A stretch of 35,047 bases of DNA from Pedosphaera sp. (GTDB lineage Bacteria > Verrucomicrobiota > Verrucomicrobiia > Limisphaerales > SXTU01). The stretch is from NCBI GenBank assembly GCA_043731805.1, contig JAYTIO010000685.1, forward strand, positions 1 through 35,047, given 5' to 3'. Below, piece after piece: positions 28,726-32,418 of this stretch. The notes under the pieces were generated by a model. That model saw only the letters and a program-made list of their open reading frames with translations, searched no databases and was not told where the DNA came from. A program made the translations under genes and the position numbers. Positions within the stretch are counted from its first letter, which is position 1. The number at the start of each line of letters is the position of its first letter.

Positions 28726-31700
28726 TCAACCAGTCGCCAGCTCACCCCACGGGGCCGGGTCGTGTTTCACCACCTCGTAATTGGCATCGAGTTCCGGTTG
28801 GAGCAGGAGGAGGGCGGCGATGCGGCGGGCCATGTGGGTGACTTCGCGGGCCTCGTCCGGCGTGAGCGCGCGGCCCAGCAGGGCGTGCTCGCGGTAACTG
28901 AGCCACTTCTTCATCACCTGATAGCCGCCGAGGGTGAAGTCCCAGACCCGCTCCGGCACGTTGCGCCAGCAGGCGGTGGCGTTGAGGAAGATGTCGTGGG
29001 TGGCGGGACCGAGCAGGTAGGGCGCGGTGTCCTCACCGCGCCGGCGAGGTTCCGGGGCGTCCGGGTGGTCGGCGGCGGGCTGAGGACAGCCCGCCCTACC
29101 CAGCGCCTCCGCCTCCTCCGCCGTGTAGCCGCGCGTCTCGAGTTTGCCTCTGCCGGGCATGGTCACGCCGCCCTGCCCCGCGTGGCCCCAGCCGACGGTG
29201 AGGGAAAGGTTCAAGCTCTCGTTCGTCAGGCGCGAGGGAACCGCAATCTTCACCAACTCGGGGCGGACCTTCCCAGCGGTCACACCGATGACGGGCGTTT
29301 CCGTGTCGAGCAAGGCGGCGACTTGGCGGCCCAACTCGGCGGAGGCCAGCAACGCCTCGCGCGACTTGGGCAACGGCACACGCGGCCAGTCTTGCCGCAA
29401 GGCCCCGGAGTTCTCGGCGCGGTAAGCCGGCGCGTGGAGCACTGCGAGCGTGTGGTAGAACAACGCCTCCGGCTGGTTGCCCAGACGGAGTGAGGCCAGA
29501 TACTCCCCAGCCGCGTCGCTCAAATTGGCTTTCGGCTGGTCGCTGTCGTGCCGCTCGAAGAGCGAGGACGGGTCGGGGTTGGGCTTCAGCAGCAGCGGGA
29601 AGAAACTTGAACGTCCATTGCCGAAACTATCTGCCAACAAGGCCGTGCAATAGCCTCTACTCCAGTCGTGCAGAACTTGGCGCTGCCGTGCCTCAATCCA
29701 TACGTTCCCTTTGAAAACTTGGAGGCGATAATCGGTGCGCTTTTCGTCCAGCAGTTTCGTTTCTGGTTCCCAATACAACCAGCGGACATCCATCGGGCGA
29801 TAACAGAAGCGGATGACGTTGTCCGGGAGGTAACCACGGCTACAAAGGTAATCACGAACCGCCTTTGCATTGAATCGTCCGGTGTTTTCCGCCAGCCCAG
29901 GCGCGACCCGGCGTATCTCCTCAAGACTTACTGCGGGGTTGAAATACACACGGAGCCGCTTCTCAAGCGACGACCTATCAAAATCAACCAGCTCTGCATC
30001 TCTGCCGCTCGTCACGCCGGGGAAGGAGACGGGGAACAGCTCCGGCAGCAGCGGCCACGTGAAAAAGGCGGCGGTGGTTTTCGTGGGCAGGAAGGGCAGG
30101 CCCACGGCCACCGGCGGCTTCAACGTCTCGTAGAGTTTGGGCTGGCCCAGCGTCGCCAACAGCTCCGCGCGCTTGGCCTTGCCCCACAGGTGGCGGAAGT
30201 GGATGACGTTCGTCATGGAGGACAAGCCGCCGGTGGGTGGTGGCACGTTTTCTCCCTCACCCCGGCCCTCTCCCGCTGGGAGAGGGAGAATGGCAGTCCG
30301 CGCCGGGTTTGGGGCGACGCTCTCCTTGGCAGAAGCAACGGCGTCCGGTGCTGGGTTGGAGCCGACGCGCTGGGTTTTACGGCGCGCGCCCGTGGCGGTC
30401 CCCTCTCCCAGCGGGAGAGGGCTAGGGTGAGGGAGAACGGCTCCCTTGCTCGATGACTGTCCAGATTTACCCGCCCCCCGCTTCACCAGCGTCGCTATCG
30501 CCGTGCCCACTTGGATGCCCTCGCGGTTGTGCTCGGTGGAGAAGACGCTGGGGTCGGGTGCGCCCTCGGGCGTGAGCTTGCCGGTCTTGTATTTGTCGCC
30601 GTTGAGGCAATCCACCGTGATGCCGTCGAACACCTCCAGATACCGCTCGCGCATTCCGGTGAAGGAGAGTCCGTCCAGCCACGAGTAGTTCGAGATGAAG
30701 CAGACGACACCCTCGCCGGACTTCTCCACGATGCGCCGCTCCGCCATGCGGAAGAAGCGGACGTAAAGGTCGTTCAAGCCCTGGCCCTGCGGCGCGGGGG
30801 CATGCTTCGTCGTGCGATAGGCGGTGCTCAGGTCGCGCTCCTCCTCCACGGCCAGGCCCGCGTAGCCGTTGTAGGGCGGGTTGCCGAGGATGACGATGAT
30901 GCGCTTCTGCTGCTTGATTTCGTCGGCCGCCTCCTTCTCCTGCCGGAACTCAGGAATGGTGAAGGTGAGCTGCCGCTTGGCTTCCTCGGTGGGCGGTTCC
31001 CAGCCGGTGAGCGCGTTGGTGAGGTAGATGGCGGCGCGTTCGTTCTTCGCGTCGTCCAGCGGCTGCCCGAGGTTTTGCAGGACGAGGCCGAGTTGCAGAT
31101 GCGCGACGACGAAGGGCGCGGGCAGGAGTTCAAAGCCGAAGATGCGCTCTTGCGCGGCCTTCTTCACGTCGGCAGCGGCGAGCACGCCTTCGCCACGCTC
31201 GGTCAGGGTTTCGTGAATCTTCCGCAGCACCTCCACGACATACGCGCCGGTGCCGCAGCAGGGGTCGAGAACGAAGACGCGCGGGTCGGCCAAGCCGTCG
31301 GGGATGTCCAGCTCCTCGCGCAGCACGGTGTCCACGCGGGCGACCATGTATTCGACAATCTCCGGCGGGGTATACCAGACGCCCAGCTCCTTGCGCAGCG
31401 CGGGGTCGAAGGCTTCGAGGAACGGCTCGTAGAAATACTGGACGGCGTGGGTCTCGACGAACTGCTCGAAGAAGGCGGGGCGGTCCACGCGGTTGAGCGC
31501 GGCGGCGGTCCAGTCGAGCGATTCGACCAAACCAAGCGGCCTGAGCTTGTTCGGGTCGGCAACTTGATGGAACAGCGCCTTGATCATCGGCACATGAAGC
31601 GTCCACCCGGCGGCCTTCCAATCGAAGGCGTCCTTGCGCGCCGGGTTTTCCTTGTGCCACAGCACCCAGGCGGAGAAGACGCCGTAGAAGAGGGTCTGCA

Positions 31701-32418
31701 CCAGCGTGGAGCGGAAGAAGTGCTCGCCCTTGTCCGCCTCGAACTTCATGCCCAGCGCCTCCTCCAGCGCGGTGCGGACGGCGGTGAGCGCGGGGAGGTC
31801 GCCCGCCGCCTCCACGCGGGCGCGGGCATCGCGCGCGTAGCTGGCGAGGAAGAAGGCGACGTCCTTGGGGTTGTTCAGCGGCGCGGCGTGGAGCAGCACG
31901 CGCTTGAGGTATTCGGAGCAGCGTTCGCCGAGCGCGTCCGCCGTCTTGCGCGGGTGCGCGGCGGCGGTCCAGAAGGCGGTTTCGCTGTCGGCGAGGCGGA
32001 AGGATTCCAAACGGAGCGTCGCGCCGCCGGGGCCGCGCTTGAGCAGCCGGAAATCGCGGTAGTTGGTGACGAGCACCTGGCCGTAGTGGGCGAGGTAGTC
32101 TTTGACTTGTGGCGACTCGATGAACGCGTCGAGTTCCTCGCCTGCGCCCTTCACTTCGATGACGCCACGCGCGGGGTTCGGCACGCCCAGCAACGGCTTC
32201 TCCTCATCCGAGTGCTTGAGCTGGTCGGGTGTGAAGAGGCCGCCATCGGGGATGCCCGCGCCGCTGTTCCGGGGATGAATGATGCAGCGGACCTTGGGCT
32301 TGAGCGTCTGGCCAATGGTCGTGAGGAGCGTGGCCAGCGCGGGATAACCGGACGTTTCCCTGGTCGCCCCGCGCAAGGTGGCGAGTTCTGACAGGTAGCT
32401 TTCCAGCGGTGGGGTCAT
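28726..32418 (-). CDS. Fused type IIG/IIL-like restriction-modification protein: N-terminal PD-(D/E)xK-like region, gamma-class N6-adenine DNA methyltransferase, C-terminal specificity region
   Basis: 1230 aa. AdoMet motif I VFVLDPCCGTGAYVVEV. Catalytic motif IV ILGNPPYNGYAG. The block YFYEPFLEAFDPALRKELGVWYTPPEIV is typical of Eco57I/YeeA/type ISP-like methylases. N-terminal IPD-(29 aa)-EVK. C-terminal FCYRPMDVRWLYWEP block as in MmeI/type ISP specificity domains. Confidence 0.85.
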   Translation of the reverse strand: MTPPLESYLSELATLRGATRETSGYPALATLLTTIGQTLKPKVRCIIHPRNSGAGIPDGGLFTPDQLKHSDEEKPLLGVPNPARGVIEVKGAGEELDAFIESPQVKDYLAHYGQVLVTNYRDFRLLKRGPGGATLRLESFRLADSETAFWTAAAHPRKTADALGERCSEYLKRVLLHAAPLNNPKDVAFFLASYARDARARVEAAGDLPALTAVRTALEEALGMKFEADKGEHFFRSTLVQTLFYGVFSAWVLWHKENPARKDAFDWKAAGWTLHVPMIKALFHQVADPNKLRPLGLVESLDWTAAALNRVDRPAFFEQFVETHAVQYFYEPFLEAFDPALRKELGVWYTPPEIVEYMVARVDTVLREELDIPDGLADPRVFVLDPCCGTGAYVVEVLRKIHETLTERGEGVLAAADVKKAAQERIFGFELLPAPFVVAHLQLGLVLQNLGQPLDDAKNERAAIYLTNALTGWEPPTEEAKRQLTFTIPEFRQEKEAADEIKQQKRIIVILGNPPYNGYAGLAVEEERDLSTAYRTTKHAPAPQGQGLNDLYVRFFRMAERRIVEKSGEGVVCFISNYSWLDGLSFTGMRERYLEVFDGITVDCLNGDKYKTGKLTPEGAPDPSVFSTEHNREGIQVGTAIATLVKRGAGKSGQSSSKGAVLPHPSPLPLGEGTATGARRKTQRVGSNPAPDAVASAKESVAPNPARTAILPLPAGEGRGEGENVPPPTGGLSSMTNVIHFRHLWGKAKRAELLATLGQPKLYETLKPPVAVGLPFLPTKTTAAFFTWPLLPELFPVSFPGVTSGRDAELVDFDRSSLEKRLRVYFNPAVSLEEIRRVAPGLAENTGRFNAKAVRDYLCSRGYLPDNVIRFCYRPMDVRWLYWEPETKLLDEKRTDYRLQVFKGNVWIEARQRQVLHDWSRGYCTALLADSFGNGRSSFFPLLLKPNPDPSSLFERHDSDQPKANLSDAAGEYLASLRLGNQPEALFYHTLAVLHAPAYRAENSGALRQDWPRVPLPKSREALLASAELGRQVAALLDTETPVIGVTAGKVRPELVKIAVPSRLTNESLNLSLTVGWGHAGQGGVTMPGRGKLETRGYTAEEAEALGRAGCPQPAADHPDAPEPRRRGEDTAPYLLGPATHDIFLNATACWRNVPERVWDFTLGGYQVMKKWLSYREHALLGRALTPDEAREVTHMARRIAALLLLQPELDANYEVVKHDPAPWGELATG
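29016..29100. repeat. REP-pair-like palindromic element lying in frame inside the RM ORF
   Basis: GGTAGGGCGCGGTGTCCTCA (29016-29035) matches the reverse complement of 29081-29100 (GGTAGGGCGGGCTGTCCTCA) at 18/20. Each arm is part of its own 9-bp-stem hairpin (29021-29042 and 29074-29095). Confidence 0.7.
30250..30437. mobile_element. MITE-like element (37-bp terminal inverted repeats, 110-bp core) lying in frame inside the RM ORF
   Basis: Left arm TTCTCCCTCACCCCGGCCCTCTCCCGCTGGGAGAGGG (30250-30286). The reverse complement of 30401-30437 is TTCTCCCTCACCCTAGCCCTCTCCCGCTGGGAGAGGG, matching at 35/37. Each arm contains the hairpin CCCTCTCCC-GCT-GGGAGAGGG. Confidence 0.65.

What the first reader, a model, noticed from the sequence alone, without database searches (positions are those of the whole stretch)
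30250..30437. MITE-like element with 37-bp terminal inverted repeats sits inside the RM ORF without breaking the frame
The ends match at 35/37 when one is reverse-complemented (TTCTCCCTCACCC(CG/TA)GCCCTCTCCCGCTGGGAGAGGG). Each end contains a perfect 9-bp-stem hairpin, CCCTCTCCC-GCT-GGGAGAGGG, and they flank a 110-bp core. The total is about 188 bp, or about 63 codons. In the protein it reads ...AVLPHPSPLPLGEGTATGARRKTQRVGSNPAPDAVASAKESVAPNPARTAILPLPAGEGRGEGENVPPP.... This low-complexity linker falls between the methyltransferase domain and the C-terminal region, exactly where a tolerated insertion would be expected. Together with the element at 29016-29100, one defence gene carries two independent palindromic insertions that preserve the ORF. 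Possible interpretations are exaptation as an inter-domain linker, recent invasion not yet purged, or a switchable hairpin or recombination site within a defence gene.
Basis: partly seen in the sequence, partly recalled or inferred. Interest (0 to 1): 0.7.

Follow-up and report, generated by a model that had tools for sequence, protein, structure and literature searches.

The report
BoxC-type repeat pair inside restriction gene
The "MITE-like" insert is real: it is an inverted pair of BoxC/TMECO triplex-hairpin repeats, a known bacterial repeat family, read through in frame as a disordered loop of a restriction-modification enzyme, and the same repeat pairs bracket a small nuclease gene (DUF559) that may be what spreads them.

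Summary
Arms 30250-30286 and 30401-30437 are complementary at 35 of 37 positions, and each folds into its own 9-bp hairpin. They lie in frame (aa 661-723) in a 1230-aa DrdV/MmeI-like restriction-methylase ORF.

Each arm fits the published BoxC/PIT/TMECO pattern CCCTCNCCC-N3-6-GGGNGAGGG-N3-GGGNGAGGG. One arm is type B and the other is type-A-like, as in E. coli pairs. So this is a member of a known interspersed repeat family, here found in Verrucomicrobiota and inside a gene. In E. coli the family was reported as strictly intergenic.

The pair has sharp ends and no target-site duplication. A related copy (core 69-72% identical) sits at an unrelated locus.

The insertion site is a loop that is 11 aa long in basal orthologues. 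It is a hotspot that holds other palindromic repeats in most relatives. Four other orthologue lineages carry the same pair at the same site, so the insertion is old and spread by recombination, not recent. AlphaFold predicts residues 655-734 as disordered.

Best reading: a tolerated selfish passenger.

Unplanned lead: DUF559 nuclease genes are bracketed by these same repeat pairs. One arm matches the window 42/42. This resembles the REP/RAYT relationship.

The parts
28726..32418 (-). Host gene: 1230-aa single-chain Type IIL/IIG restriction-methylase. It has an N-terminal PD..EVK nuclease motif, an N6-adenine methylase domain with NPPY, and a Type_ISP_C C-terminal region.
   Evidence: ORF and translation. 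Pfam N6_Mtase, Eco57I, MmeI_Mtase, Type_ISP_C. PADLOC REase_MTase_IIG, 3e-88. Best PDB match is 7LO5/7LVV over residues 326-656. D58, E88, K90 and NPPY are invariant among 37 homologues.
30250..30286 (-). Left arm: one BoxC/TMECO unit on the minus strand (CCCTCTCCC-AGC-GGGAGAGGG-CCG-GGGTGAGGG-AGAA). Loop 2 is CCG, which makes it type B. It is translated as ILPLPAGEGRGEGE.
   Evidence: Pattern and types come from Holder 2015. 30250-30291 is 42/42 identical to the arm that flanks a DUF559 gene in a Verrucomicrobia MAG, L211.
30287..30400 (-). Core between the arms, 114 nt. It is homologous to the 64-66-nt core of the canonical doublet, plus a 48-nt internal duplication (30302-30349; repeat units 30289-30320 and 30337-30368, 22/32 identical).
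   Evidence: DNA alignments with orthologue copies and the unrelated copy L150. Coordinates.
30401..30437 (+). Right arm: one BoxC/TMECO unit on the plus strand (CCCTCTCCC-AGC-GGGAGAGGG-CTA-GGGTGAGGG-AGAA). Loop 2 is CTA, which is type-A-like. Read on the minus strand it is translated as VLPHPSPLPLGEG.
30206..30249 (-). Secondary 39-nt insertion next to the doublet, bounded by ACGTT direct repeats (30206-30210 and 30245-30249). It encodes PPPTGGLSSMTNV. It contains a 13-nt perfect inverted copy (30224-30236) of conserved coding sequence at 30108-30120.
   Evidence: Absent from the other doublet-bearing orthologues, which run ..GEGRGEGN-V/M-IHFRH. Repeats. A template-switch origin is inferred.
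30187..30455 (-). Whole expanded loop (aa 655-744; the disordered part is 655-734), lying between beta-strands 640-646 and 739-743.
   Evidence: AlphaFold2 on residues 330-830 with a 42-sequence alignment. Residues 655-734 have pLDDT below 50 and no secondary structure. The loop is 11 aa in basal orthologues and 94 aa here.
29016..29100 (-). Second, unrelated palindromic doublet in the same ORF (aa 1107-1135, GRAGCPQPAADHPDAPEPRRRGEDTAPYL). It lies in a second hypervariable loop.
   Evidence: 32-nt arms, 84% complementary, each with a 9-bp hairpin. This loop is hypervariable among orthologues, and P0079 carries the identical insert. No exact arm copy was found in viral contigs.

Best explanation
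The element is an inverted doublet of BoxC/PIT/TMECO repeats, arranged as one type-A-like unit, a core, and one type-B unit. This is a REPIN-like, non-coding, non-autonomous interspersed repeat. Each unit can form a hairpin. On the G-rich strand it can also form an intrastrand triplex or a G-quadruplex. The doublet lies in a surface loop between two beta-strands at the end of the methylase domain of a DrdV/MmeI-like Type IIL restriction-modification enzyme.

In the frame used, both arms are free of stop codons (LPHPSPLPLGEG and LPLPAGEGRGEGE). The insertion is therefore read through as a Pro/Gly-rich disordered loop, and the enzyme's catalytic motifs stay intact.

The insertion is old. It entered a loop that already held another palindromic repeat. 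It was inherited and passed between alleles of this mosaic gene family by recombination. It has since collected local, structure-driven rearrangements: a 48-nt core duplication and a 39-nt templated insertion.

It most likely does nothing for the enzyme and is a tolerated selfish passenger.

Shown here: the element's identity, its in-frame position, the predicted disorder, the hotspot, the sharing among orthologues, and the lack of a target-site duplication. Inferred: neutrality, and how it got there. The best lead on origin is that identical doublets bracket DUF559 (Vsr-like PD-(D/E)xK) nuclease genes in the same phylum. That nuclease, encoded elsewhere in the genome, may create or move the repeats.
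For: Both arms fit the published TMECO pattern and the A+B pairing rule. Doublets from unrelated loci (L150, L151, L153) align with the window copy from (T)TCTCCCTCACCC to GGGTGAGGGAGA. L150 also shares the core, at 69-72% identity.

Basal orthologues have an 11-aa loop, and most relatives have a 27-aa loop derived from a 72-nt perfect palindrome whose arm is itself a dispersed repeat. P0005-7/9, P0013, P0008 and P0038 carry the same doublet at the same right-hand junction. These doublet-bearing proteins are polyphyletic on the N-terminal tree, and the family is mosaic. Core identity among the gene copies is 78-82%, against 81-84% for upstream flanking DNA.

Residues 655-734 are predicted disordered. 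The nuclease and NPPY motifs are invariant. Other in-frame TM insertions exist in real genes: L063, a YgiQ-like radical SAM protein, and L131, an FtsX permease. Published work links TMECO sites to local instability.

For the DUF559 link.
Against: No experiment shows that the enzyme is active with the insert. Neutrality is inferred only from tolerance and predicted disorder. Retention in frame across about 18% nucleotide divergence could also reflect selection for the loop. A single origin followed by recombination is favoured but not proven; repeated insertion at a hotspot would give a similar pattern. The window and its 44-kb contig hold no DUF559 gene, so action in trans is an assumption. 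In E. coli this repeat family was reported as never lying within ORFs, so the coding location is atypical for the family.
Confidence: 0.8

Rival explanations
1. Exapted linker. The translated repeat has been recruited as a flexible Pro/Gly-rich tether that tunes how the methylase and the C-terminal recognition region move relative to each other, and it is kept by selection.
For: The insert is kept in frame in at least five diverged orthologue lineages. Its position is just after the methylase core. Length variation at this loop is widespread in the family.
Against: Basal and many other family members manage with an 11-aa loop. The loop content is interchangeable among unrelated repeat families and is predicted fully disordered. 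Arm conservation is explained by DNA-level repeat identity, because non-coding copies carry the same arms.
Confidence: 0.1
2. Independent recent invasions. The same doublet family inserted separately and recently into this loop in each lineage because the older palindrome there is a preferred target.
For: Doublet-bearing orthologues are polyphyletic. Left junctions differ: 13 nt, 29 nt or none of the older palindrome is retained. Nested insertion into palindromes is a known habit of REP-targeting elements (general knowledge).
Against: The right junction is identical (GEGRGEGN-V/M-IHF). The gene copies share a core subtype and are closer to each other (78-82%) than to the off-gene copy L150 (69-72%). 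Their divergence is about the same as that of the flanking gene DNA. The family is demonstrably mosaic, which explains the polyphyly.
Confidence: 0.12
3. Programmed recombination or phase-variation site. The hairpin, triplex or G4 structure promotes breakage and recombination so that C-terminal recognition modules are shuffled, or the gene is switched on and off.
For: The family is mosaic with a hypervariable region around aa 780-960. Published work associates TMECO sites with rearrangement. The window copy has local duplications and insertions next to the doublet.
Against: The clearest mosaic breakpoints (P0079, around aa 420-480 and 1020-1080) do not coincide with the doublet. There is no second inverted gene copy or recombinase nearby in the window. 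Published in vivo tests found no promoter, terminator or stable triplex activity.
Confidence: 0.05
4. Chance palindrome or assembly artefact.
For: The contig is a short-read metagenome assembly.
Against: Shuffles predict 0.01 matches. The arms (37 nt) are shorter than the assembler's final k-mer, which is inferred from the k141 contig name. The ORF stays in frame with orthologues on both sides. The same structure appears in independent NCBI, ENA and JGI assemblies.
Confidence: 0.01

Closest known systems
BoxC / PIT / TMECO intrastrand-triplex repeats of E. coli and other Proteobacteria (Holder et al. 2015, PMC4666352). The same motif was described as a G-quadruplex-hairpin-duplex switch, HPG1/HPG2 (Kaplan et al. 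2016, PMC5100583).
   Same: The three-block pattern is the same, and the unit length is similar (37-nt arms here, 34-37 nt in E. coli). The minus-strand reading of the window's left arm differs from E. coli TMECO no. 1 only in loop 1 and the last base (my reading). Units occur singly and as inverted pairs that combine a type A with a type B unit. The family is dispersed and linked to local sequence instability.
   Different: In E. coli it was reported as always intergenic, and the systematic count covered 262 proteobacterial genomes. Here the host is Verrucomicrobiota, the element lies inside an ORF and is translated, and the doublet has a recognisable core of about 64 nt. My scan also finds the arm in many other phyla.
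REP / REPIN elements and their RAYT transposases
   Same: Both are short palindromic units found as singletons and as inverted doublets that fold into a long hairpin. Neither makes a target-site duplication. In both, a small nuclease gene is bracketed by the cognate repeats while most repeat copies lie elsewhere.
   Different: The bracketed gene here is DUF559, a Vsr-like PD-(D/E)xK fold, not a Y1 HUH transposase. The arms lack the GTAG/CGTC tag. No transposition chemistry is known for DUF559.
Rickettsia palindromic elements (Ogata et al. 2000; reviewed in PMC10969869)
   Same: Both are palindromic repeats of roughly 100-190 bp inserted in frame into unrelated functional genes at positions the protein fold tolerates.
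   Different: The sequence family, host and base composition are unrelated. RPEs were proposed to encode a conserved peptide. Here the peptide is simply the reading of GC-rich hairpin blocks and is predicted disordered.
Classical bacterial MITEs (for example Correia, ERIC, Nezha)
   Same: Small size, terminal inverted repeats, many copies, and occasional in-frame fusions with host ORFs.
   Different: No target-site duplication, and no matching IS transposase.

Membership tests
BoxC/PIT/TMECO repeat | Sequence pattern CCCTCNCCC-N3-6-GGGNGAGGG-N3-GGGNGAGGG | tested here: met
   Both arms match exactly: the right arm on the plus strand and the left arm on the minus strand.
BoxC/PIT/TMECO repeat | Many dispersed copies within and across genomes | tested here: met
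Copy number in the source genome itself could not be measured.
BoxC/PIT/TMECO repeat | Inverted pairs that combine a type A (loop TTA) unit with a type B (loop CCG) unit | tested here: met
   The window has CCG plus CTA. Orthologue and DUF559-flanking doublets have CCG plus TTA, TAA or TCA.
BoxC/PIT/TMECO repeat | Intergenic location (as reported for E. coli) | tested here: not met
   This copy is inside a 1230-aa ORF. 73% of 194 units elsewhere look intergenic. I treat this as a reported habit of the family, not a structural definition.
BoxC/PIT/TMECO repeat | Forms an intrastrand triplex or G4 in vitro | not testable with these tools
   Only hairpin folding could be predicted. Four G3 runs with 3-nt loops are visible in the sequence.
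MITE | Terminal inverted repeats, small size, no coding capacity of its own | tested here: met
   37-nt inverted repeats matching 35/37, total length 188 nt.
MITE | Target-site duplication flanking the element | tested here: not met
   No direct repeat at the ends in the window, L150, L151 or L153.
MITE | Parent autonomous element with the same ends that encodes a transposase | tested here: inconclusive
   DUF559 genes are bracketed by the same doublets, but DUF559 is not a known transposase.
REP/REPIN-RAYT | Palindromic units of 20-40 nt occurring singly and as inverted doublets that form a hairpin | tested here: met
REP/REPIN-RAYT | GTAG or CGTC tetranucleotide tag at one end of the unit | tested here: not met
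   The arms begin TTCTCCC and end GGGAGAA. The tag criterion is taken from the title and abstract of PMC3733652.
REP/REPIN-RAYT | Cognate Y1 (RAYT) transposase gene flanked by the repeats | tested here: inconclusive
   In every flanked-gene case seen, the gene is DUF559. No genome-wide RAYT search was possible.
Rickettsia-type in-frame palindromic elements | Palindromic repeat inserted in frame at a position the fold tolerates | tested here: met
   In frame, in a disordered loop between two strands.
Rickettsia-type in-frame palindromic elements | Sequence homology to RPE families | not tested
   The host and base composition differ. This is an analogy, not a membership claim.
Type IIL/IIG RM enzyme (host gene) | Single chain with a nuclease motif, a gamma-class N6-adenine methylase with NPPY, a C-terminal recognition region, and no helicase domain | tested here: met
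   Pfam and PADLOC hits. Conserved motifs. PDB 7LO5 match. That 7LO5 is DrdV is from memory.

The most novel reading that the evidence does not exclude
BoxC/PIT/TMECO repeats have had no known origin or spreading mechanism since the 1990s. They may be the non-autonomous partners of DUF559 (YcjD-like, Vsr-fold PD-(D/E)xK) nucleases. That would make a second REP/RAYT-like repeat-plus-nuclease system, built on a different nuclease fold and present across many phyla. The doublet in this RM gene would be one of its stray copies.

Evidence so far:
- 23 of 42 DUF559 genes in viral contigs have inverted repeats on both flanks at E < 1e-5, against 1 of 200 random controls. The repeats fall into about a dozen different hairpin-rich sequence families.
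- Every verrucomicrobial DUF559 locus fetched lies between two complete doublets, and one arm is 42/42 identical to the window's.
- The same holds for Acinetobacter (L029).
- E. coli ycjD ends in a degenerate unit and is followed by TMECO no. 9.
- ycjD sits where the eefRABCD operon lies in other E. coli phylogroups.

No paper in the searchable library makes this link.
Probability: 0.5. Interest if true: 0.8.

Novelty: new variant of a known kind. Interest (0 to 1): 0.55.

Why it matters
First, it explains a common annotation oddity. Low-complexity "PHPxPLPxGEG...LPLPxGEGxGEG" stretches in proteins from Verrucomicrobiota and other phyla are translated BoxC-type repeats, not protein motifs.

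Second, it shows that a repeat family thought to be strictly intergenic, and surveyed mainly in Proteobacteria, is spread over many phyla. It can live for a long time inside working genes by sitting in a permissive loop.

Third, one loop of a defence enzyme has been colonised by several unrelated palindromic repeat families in turn. That makes it a natural record of how such repeats choose targets and decay.

Fourth, the DUF559 association turns the old question "what makes and moves BoxC/PIT/TMECO repeats" into a directly testable one. E. coli ycjD is a ready experimental handle.

Tried and rejected
- Rfam scan of 29900-30800 gave only a sub-threshold MIR918 hit on both strands (32.8 bits against a gathering score of 268). 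This is a generic long-hairpin match and was rejected.
- A metagenome scan with a degenerate core pattern found only two contigs, both the orthologous methylase gene. The exact core subtype is therefore rare outside this gene in that collection.
- BLAST of the 114-nt core against 143 fetched loci gave nothing significant apart from the window's own contig.
- A protein search with the translated insert gave 15 hits, all small ORFs of 71-115 aa. These are other doublets, one of them (P0121) with a homologous core.
- A look for a target-site duplication found none.
- Monophyly of the doublet-bearing orthologues was rejected.
- An exact arm scan for the second element (29016-29100) in viral contigs found nothing.
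- The E. coli fabI-ycjD-sapF comparison did not give a clean empty site. In other phylogroups that location holds the eef operon.
- RAYT genes were not searched for.
- The host enzyme's activity, and any read-level excision variants, could not be tested.
Full report
OBSERVATION. The arms are 30250-30286 and 30401-30437, 37 nt each, complementary at 35 of 37 positions, with 114 nt between them. Each arm holds a perfect 9-bp hairpin, CCCTCTCCC-GCT-GGGAGAGGG. That 21-nt pattern occurs nowhere else in the window, and shuffles predict 0.01 matches. Folded as one strand, the 208-nt stretch pairs arm with arm: RNA -125.7 kcal/mol, z = -7.7; DNA -74.1 kcal/mol, z = -8.5. The element lies in the minus-strand ORF 28726-32418 (1230 aa) and is translated as aa 661-723, VLPHPSPLPLGEGTATG...ILPLPAGEGRGEGE. 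The second palindromic element at 29016-29100 is also real. One correction: 188 nt is not a multiple of three, so the frame is kept by the whole expanded loop and not by the element alone.

HOST GENE. Pfam finds N6_Mtase, Eco57I, MmeI_Mtase and Type_ISP_C, and no helicase domain. PADLOC calls it a Type IIG restriction-methylase. The best solved relative is 7LO5/7LVV, aligned over residues 326-656, followed by LlaGI and LlaBIII. From memory, 7LO5 is the Type IIL enzyme DrdV. The nuclease residues D58, E88 and K90 and the NPPY motif are invariant among 37 homologues, so the gene looks functional. Its closest relatives are from Verrucomicrobiota metagenome-assembled genomes. The gene stands alone among housekeeping genes, and the neighbourhood differs from genome to genome.

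WHAT THE ARMS ARE. A literature search with the two G-blocks led to Holder et al. 2015 and Kaplan et al. 2016. The arms fit the published pattern CCCTCNCCC-N3-6-GGGNGAGGG-N3-GGGNGAGGG. This motif was first called BoxC, then PIT, then TMECO. It was shown in vitro to form an intrastrand triplex, and it was separately described as a G-quadruplex-hairpin-duplex switch. The window's left arm, read on the minus strand, has loop 2 CCG (type B). The right arm has CTA, close to the type A loop TTA. In E. coli K-12 all five inverted pairs combine a type A unit with a type B unit, and the same rule holds here. Both papers state that in E. coli the motif is never inside an ORF. Holder et al. counted it in 262 proteobacterial genomes. 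They also report that they never found remnants of transposases or integrases near TMECO sites.

DISTRIBUTION. An exact scan with the arm pattern found 22 viral contigs. The titles of those loci span Pseudomonadota, Planctomycetota, Verrucomicrobiota, Chloroflexota, Acidobacteriota, Myxococcota, Cyanobacteria, Omnitrophota and others. Units occur singly and in pairs. Of 194 units in these loci, 73% have fewer than 50 open codons on one side, which means they look intergenic. A few are truly inside genes. One is a single unit in a Polaromonas YgiQ-like radical SAM protein, where the Pfam domain spans it. Another is a doublet in a verrucomicrobial FtsX-type permease.

IS THE WHOLE 188 nt A UNIT? 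Yes, as a doublet. A protein search with the translated insert returned 15 small ORFs, most built as LPHPxPLPLGEG, then about 20-25 variable residues, then ILPLPAGEGRGEGE. One of them, P0121 on L150, lies between unrelated genes and has a core clearly homologous to the window's. DNA alignment of doublets from unrelated loci shows that homology starts at (T)TCTCCCTCACCC and ends at GGGTGAGGGAGA, with no target-site duplication. The canonical core is about 64-66 nt. The window has a 48-nt internal duplication (30302-30349). The exact core subtype is rare. A degenerate core scan of the metagenome collection found only the orthologous gene.

THE INSERTION SITE IS A HOTSPOT. I examined this loop in 120 homologues.
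- Basal members have an 11-aa loop, for example RKEKHEAPEGV.
- A large clade has 27 aa, SRRKEAQTSKKKSKSLLTSAATGEI. At the DNA level this is a perfect 25-bp-stem palindrome, and its arm is itself a dispersed repeat with sharp ends.
- Other members carry different long inserts.
- Four other lineages carry the same TM doublet: P0005-7/9, P0013, P0008 and P0038.

All of these doublet-bearing orthologues share the right junction GEGRGEGN-V/M-IHFRH. Their left junctions keep 29 nt, 13 nt or none of the older palindrome.

AlphaFold2 on residues 330-830 places the loop between strands 640-646 and 739-743. Residues 655-734 have pLDDT below 50 and no secondary structure.

AGE AND ROUTE. Core identity among the gene copies is 78-82%. 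That is similar to the upstream flanking gene DNA (81-84%) and higher than identity to the off-gene copy L150 (69-72%). On an N-terminal tree the doublet-bearing proteins are scattered, but the family is plainly mosaic. P0079 is 88-100% identical to the window protein over residues 1-240 and 86-97% over 1081-1230, including the identical second insert, yet only 33-50% identical over residues 481-600 and 721-960. The simplest reading is one old insertion that recombination has passed between alleles, not a recent invasion.

The window copy has two further changes. One is the core duplication. The other is a 39-nt insertion bounded by ACGTT repeats, which holds a 13-nt inverted copy of sequence about 100 nt away. 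Both fit the structure-provoked slippage and template switching that Holder et al. propose for these sites.

MECHANISM. Shown: a known type of repeat doublet is read through in frame as a disordered loop of an apparently intact enzyme. Inferred: it is a tolerated selfish passenger. Exaptation as a tether, or a role as a recombination site, cannot be excluded but has little support. Unrelated repeats occupy the same loop in relatives. The clearest mosaic breakpoints lie elsewhere. Published tests found no promoter or terminator activity and no stable triplex in vivo.

AN UNPLANNED LEAD: DUF559. One doublet hit (L151/L152) lay next to a DUF559 gene flanked by TM units. Further cases followed.
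- Acinetobacter portensis (L029) and an uncultured MAG (L106) each have a DUF559 gene directly next to TM units: in L029 units lie on both sides, in L106 one unit overlaps the gene's 3' end. They were the only two of the 120 TM-selected genome loci to contain such a gene.
- In E. coli K-12 the only DUF559 gene I examined, ycjD, has its stop codon inside a degenerate unit and is followed 165 nt later by TMECO no. 9. Kaplan's table lists that site without comment.

As a test, I fetched 49 DUF559 loci from viral contigs. Of the 42 with enough flanking sequence, 23 have an inverted repeat spanning the gene at E < 1e-5, against 1 of 200 random pseudo-genes. The arms fall into about a dozen sequence families. 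Most are GC-rich hairpins followed by further G-rich blocks, and three families are true TMs.

The closest homologues of the L151 protein are named as verrucomicrobial proteins, and most sit on very short contigs, as repeats do. Every verrucomicrobial locus I could fetch has a complete doublet on each side of the gene: L211, L212/L213 and L214-L221. In the last group an identical protein appears in at least three different neighbourhoods. The L211 arm is 42/42 identical to window 30250-30291.

A 2026 paper shows that ycjD occupies the place where other E. coli phylogroups have the eefRABCD operon. The DUF559 profile matches PDB 3HRL at E = 6e-34. Steczkiewicz et al. 2012 group DUF559 with Vsr and with a group I intron homing endonuclease.

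I found no paper linking DUF559 to these repeats. The pattern resembles RAYT genes bracketed by REPs. Whether DUF559 makes, moves or merely travels with the repeats is not shown. The window's own contig has no DUF559 gene.

COMPARISON AND VERDICT. The arms are members of the BoxC/PIT/TMECO family, with the pattern, dispersal and A+B pairing all met. This copy departs from the reported intergenic habit and from the taxa surveyed. It behaves like a REPIN doublet, but it lacks the GTAG/CGTC tag and any RAYT. It behaves like a Rickettsia palindromic element in its in-frame, fold-tolerated position. It is not a classical MITE because there is no target-site duplication. I rate it a new variant of a known kind. 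On its own it is of moderate interest, raised by the testable DUF559 lead.

Noticed in passing
L211:1321-2722; L212:1322-2091; L214-L221; L151:857-1526; L029:820-1468; L154:2206-2761 (E. coli K-12 ycjD): DUF559 (Vsr-like) nuclease genes are bracketed by BoxC/TM units or complete doublets in Verrucomicrobia and Acinetobacter, and E. coli ycjD has a degenerate unit at its stop codon plus TMECO no. 9 downstream. In viral contigs 23 of 42 DUF559 genes have inverted flank repeats, against 1 of 200 controls. One arm is 42/42 identical to the window's. No paper was found that makes this link.
   Followed up: yes
window 30206-30249 and 30108-30120: A 39-nt extra insertion next to the doublet, bounded by ACGTT direct repeats. 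It contains a 13-nt perfect inverted copy of conserved coding sequence about 100 nt away. This looks like a template-switch product.
   Followed up: partly
window 30289-30368: A 48-nt internal duplication in the core (units 30289-30320 and 30337-30368, 22/32 identical). It is absent from orthologue copies and from the off-gene copy.
   Followed up: partly
window 29016-29100: A second, unrelated palindromic doublet (32-nt arms, each with a 9-bp hairpin) in a second hypervariable loop of the same ORF. P0079 carries the identical insert. No exact arm copy was found in viral contigs.
   Followed up: partly
L147:6004-6132 (P0002 loop) and L204-L209: The 27-aa loop of most orthologues (SRRKEAQTSKKKSKSLLTSAATGEI) is a perfect 25-bp-stem palindrome at the DNA level. 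Its arm, (C)GTAGCAGCCGACGTGAGGAGGCTC, is a dispersed repeat with sharp ends. In P0008 and P0038 the TM doublet replaced its right half.
   Followed up: partly
window 28726-32418 compared with P0079, P0105 and others: The restriction-methylase family is mosaic. P0079 is 88-100% identical over aa 1-240 and 86-97% over aa 1081-1230, but only 33-50% over aa 481-600 and 721-960. This is consistent with swapping of the recognition region.
   Followed up: partly
L063:1161-1193; L131:4966-5087: Other in-frame TM insertions in real genes. One is a single unit inside the Radical_SAM_N domain of a Polaromonas YgiQ-like protein. The other is a doublet in a verrucomicrobial FtsX/MacB-type permease.
   Followed up: partly
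L151:732-1700: The block [TM doublet + DUF559 gene + half doublet] sits next to a duplicated copy of the first ~35 codons of an NTP_transferase gene. The complete gene follows the block.
   Followed up: no
L211:1938-2722: Downstream of the DUF559 gene, 3.5 doublets form a tandem array with a period of 248-252 nt. The first three inter-doublet spacers are near-identical, but the cores differ.
   Followed up: no
L210 (E. coli O157:H7) compared with L154 (K-12): Homology between strains breaks 43 nt before TMECO no. 9. Strains without ycjD have the eefRABCD efflux operon at that location (PMC12817139). 3346 of 5426 complete E. coli genomes keep the K-12 arrangement.
   Followed up: partly
window 30240-30262 (coding strand): The G-rich end of the doublet reads GAGGGAGAAAACGTG on the coding strand. 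That is a Shine-Dalgarno-like block followed by an in-frame GTG (V725), which could in principle start a separate C-terminal product.
   Followed up: no
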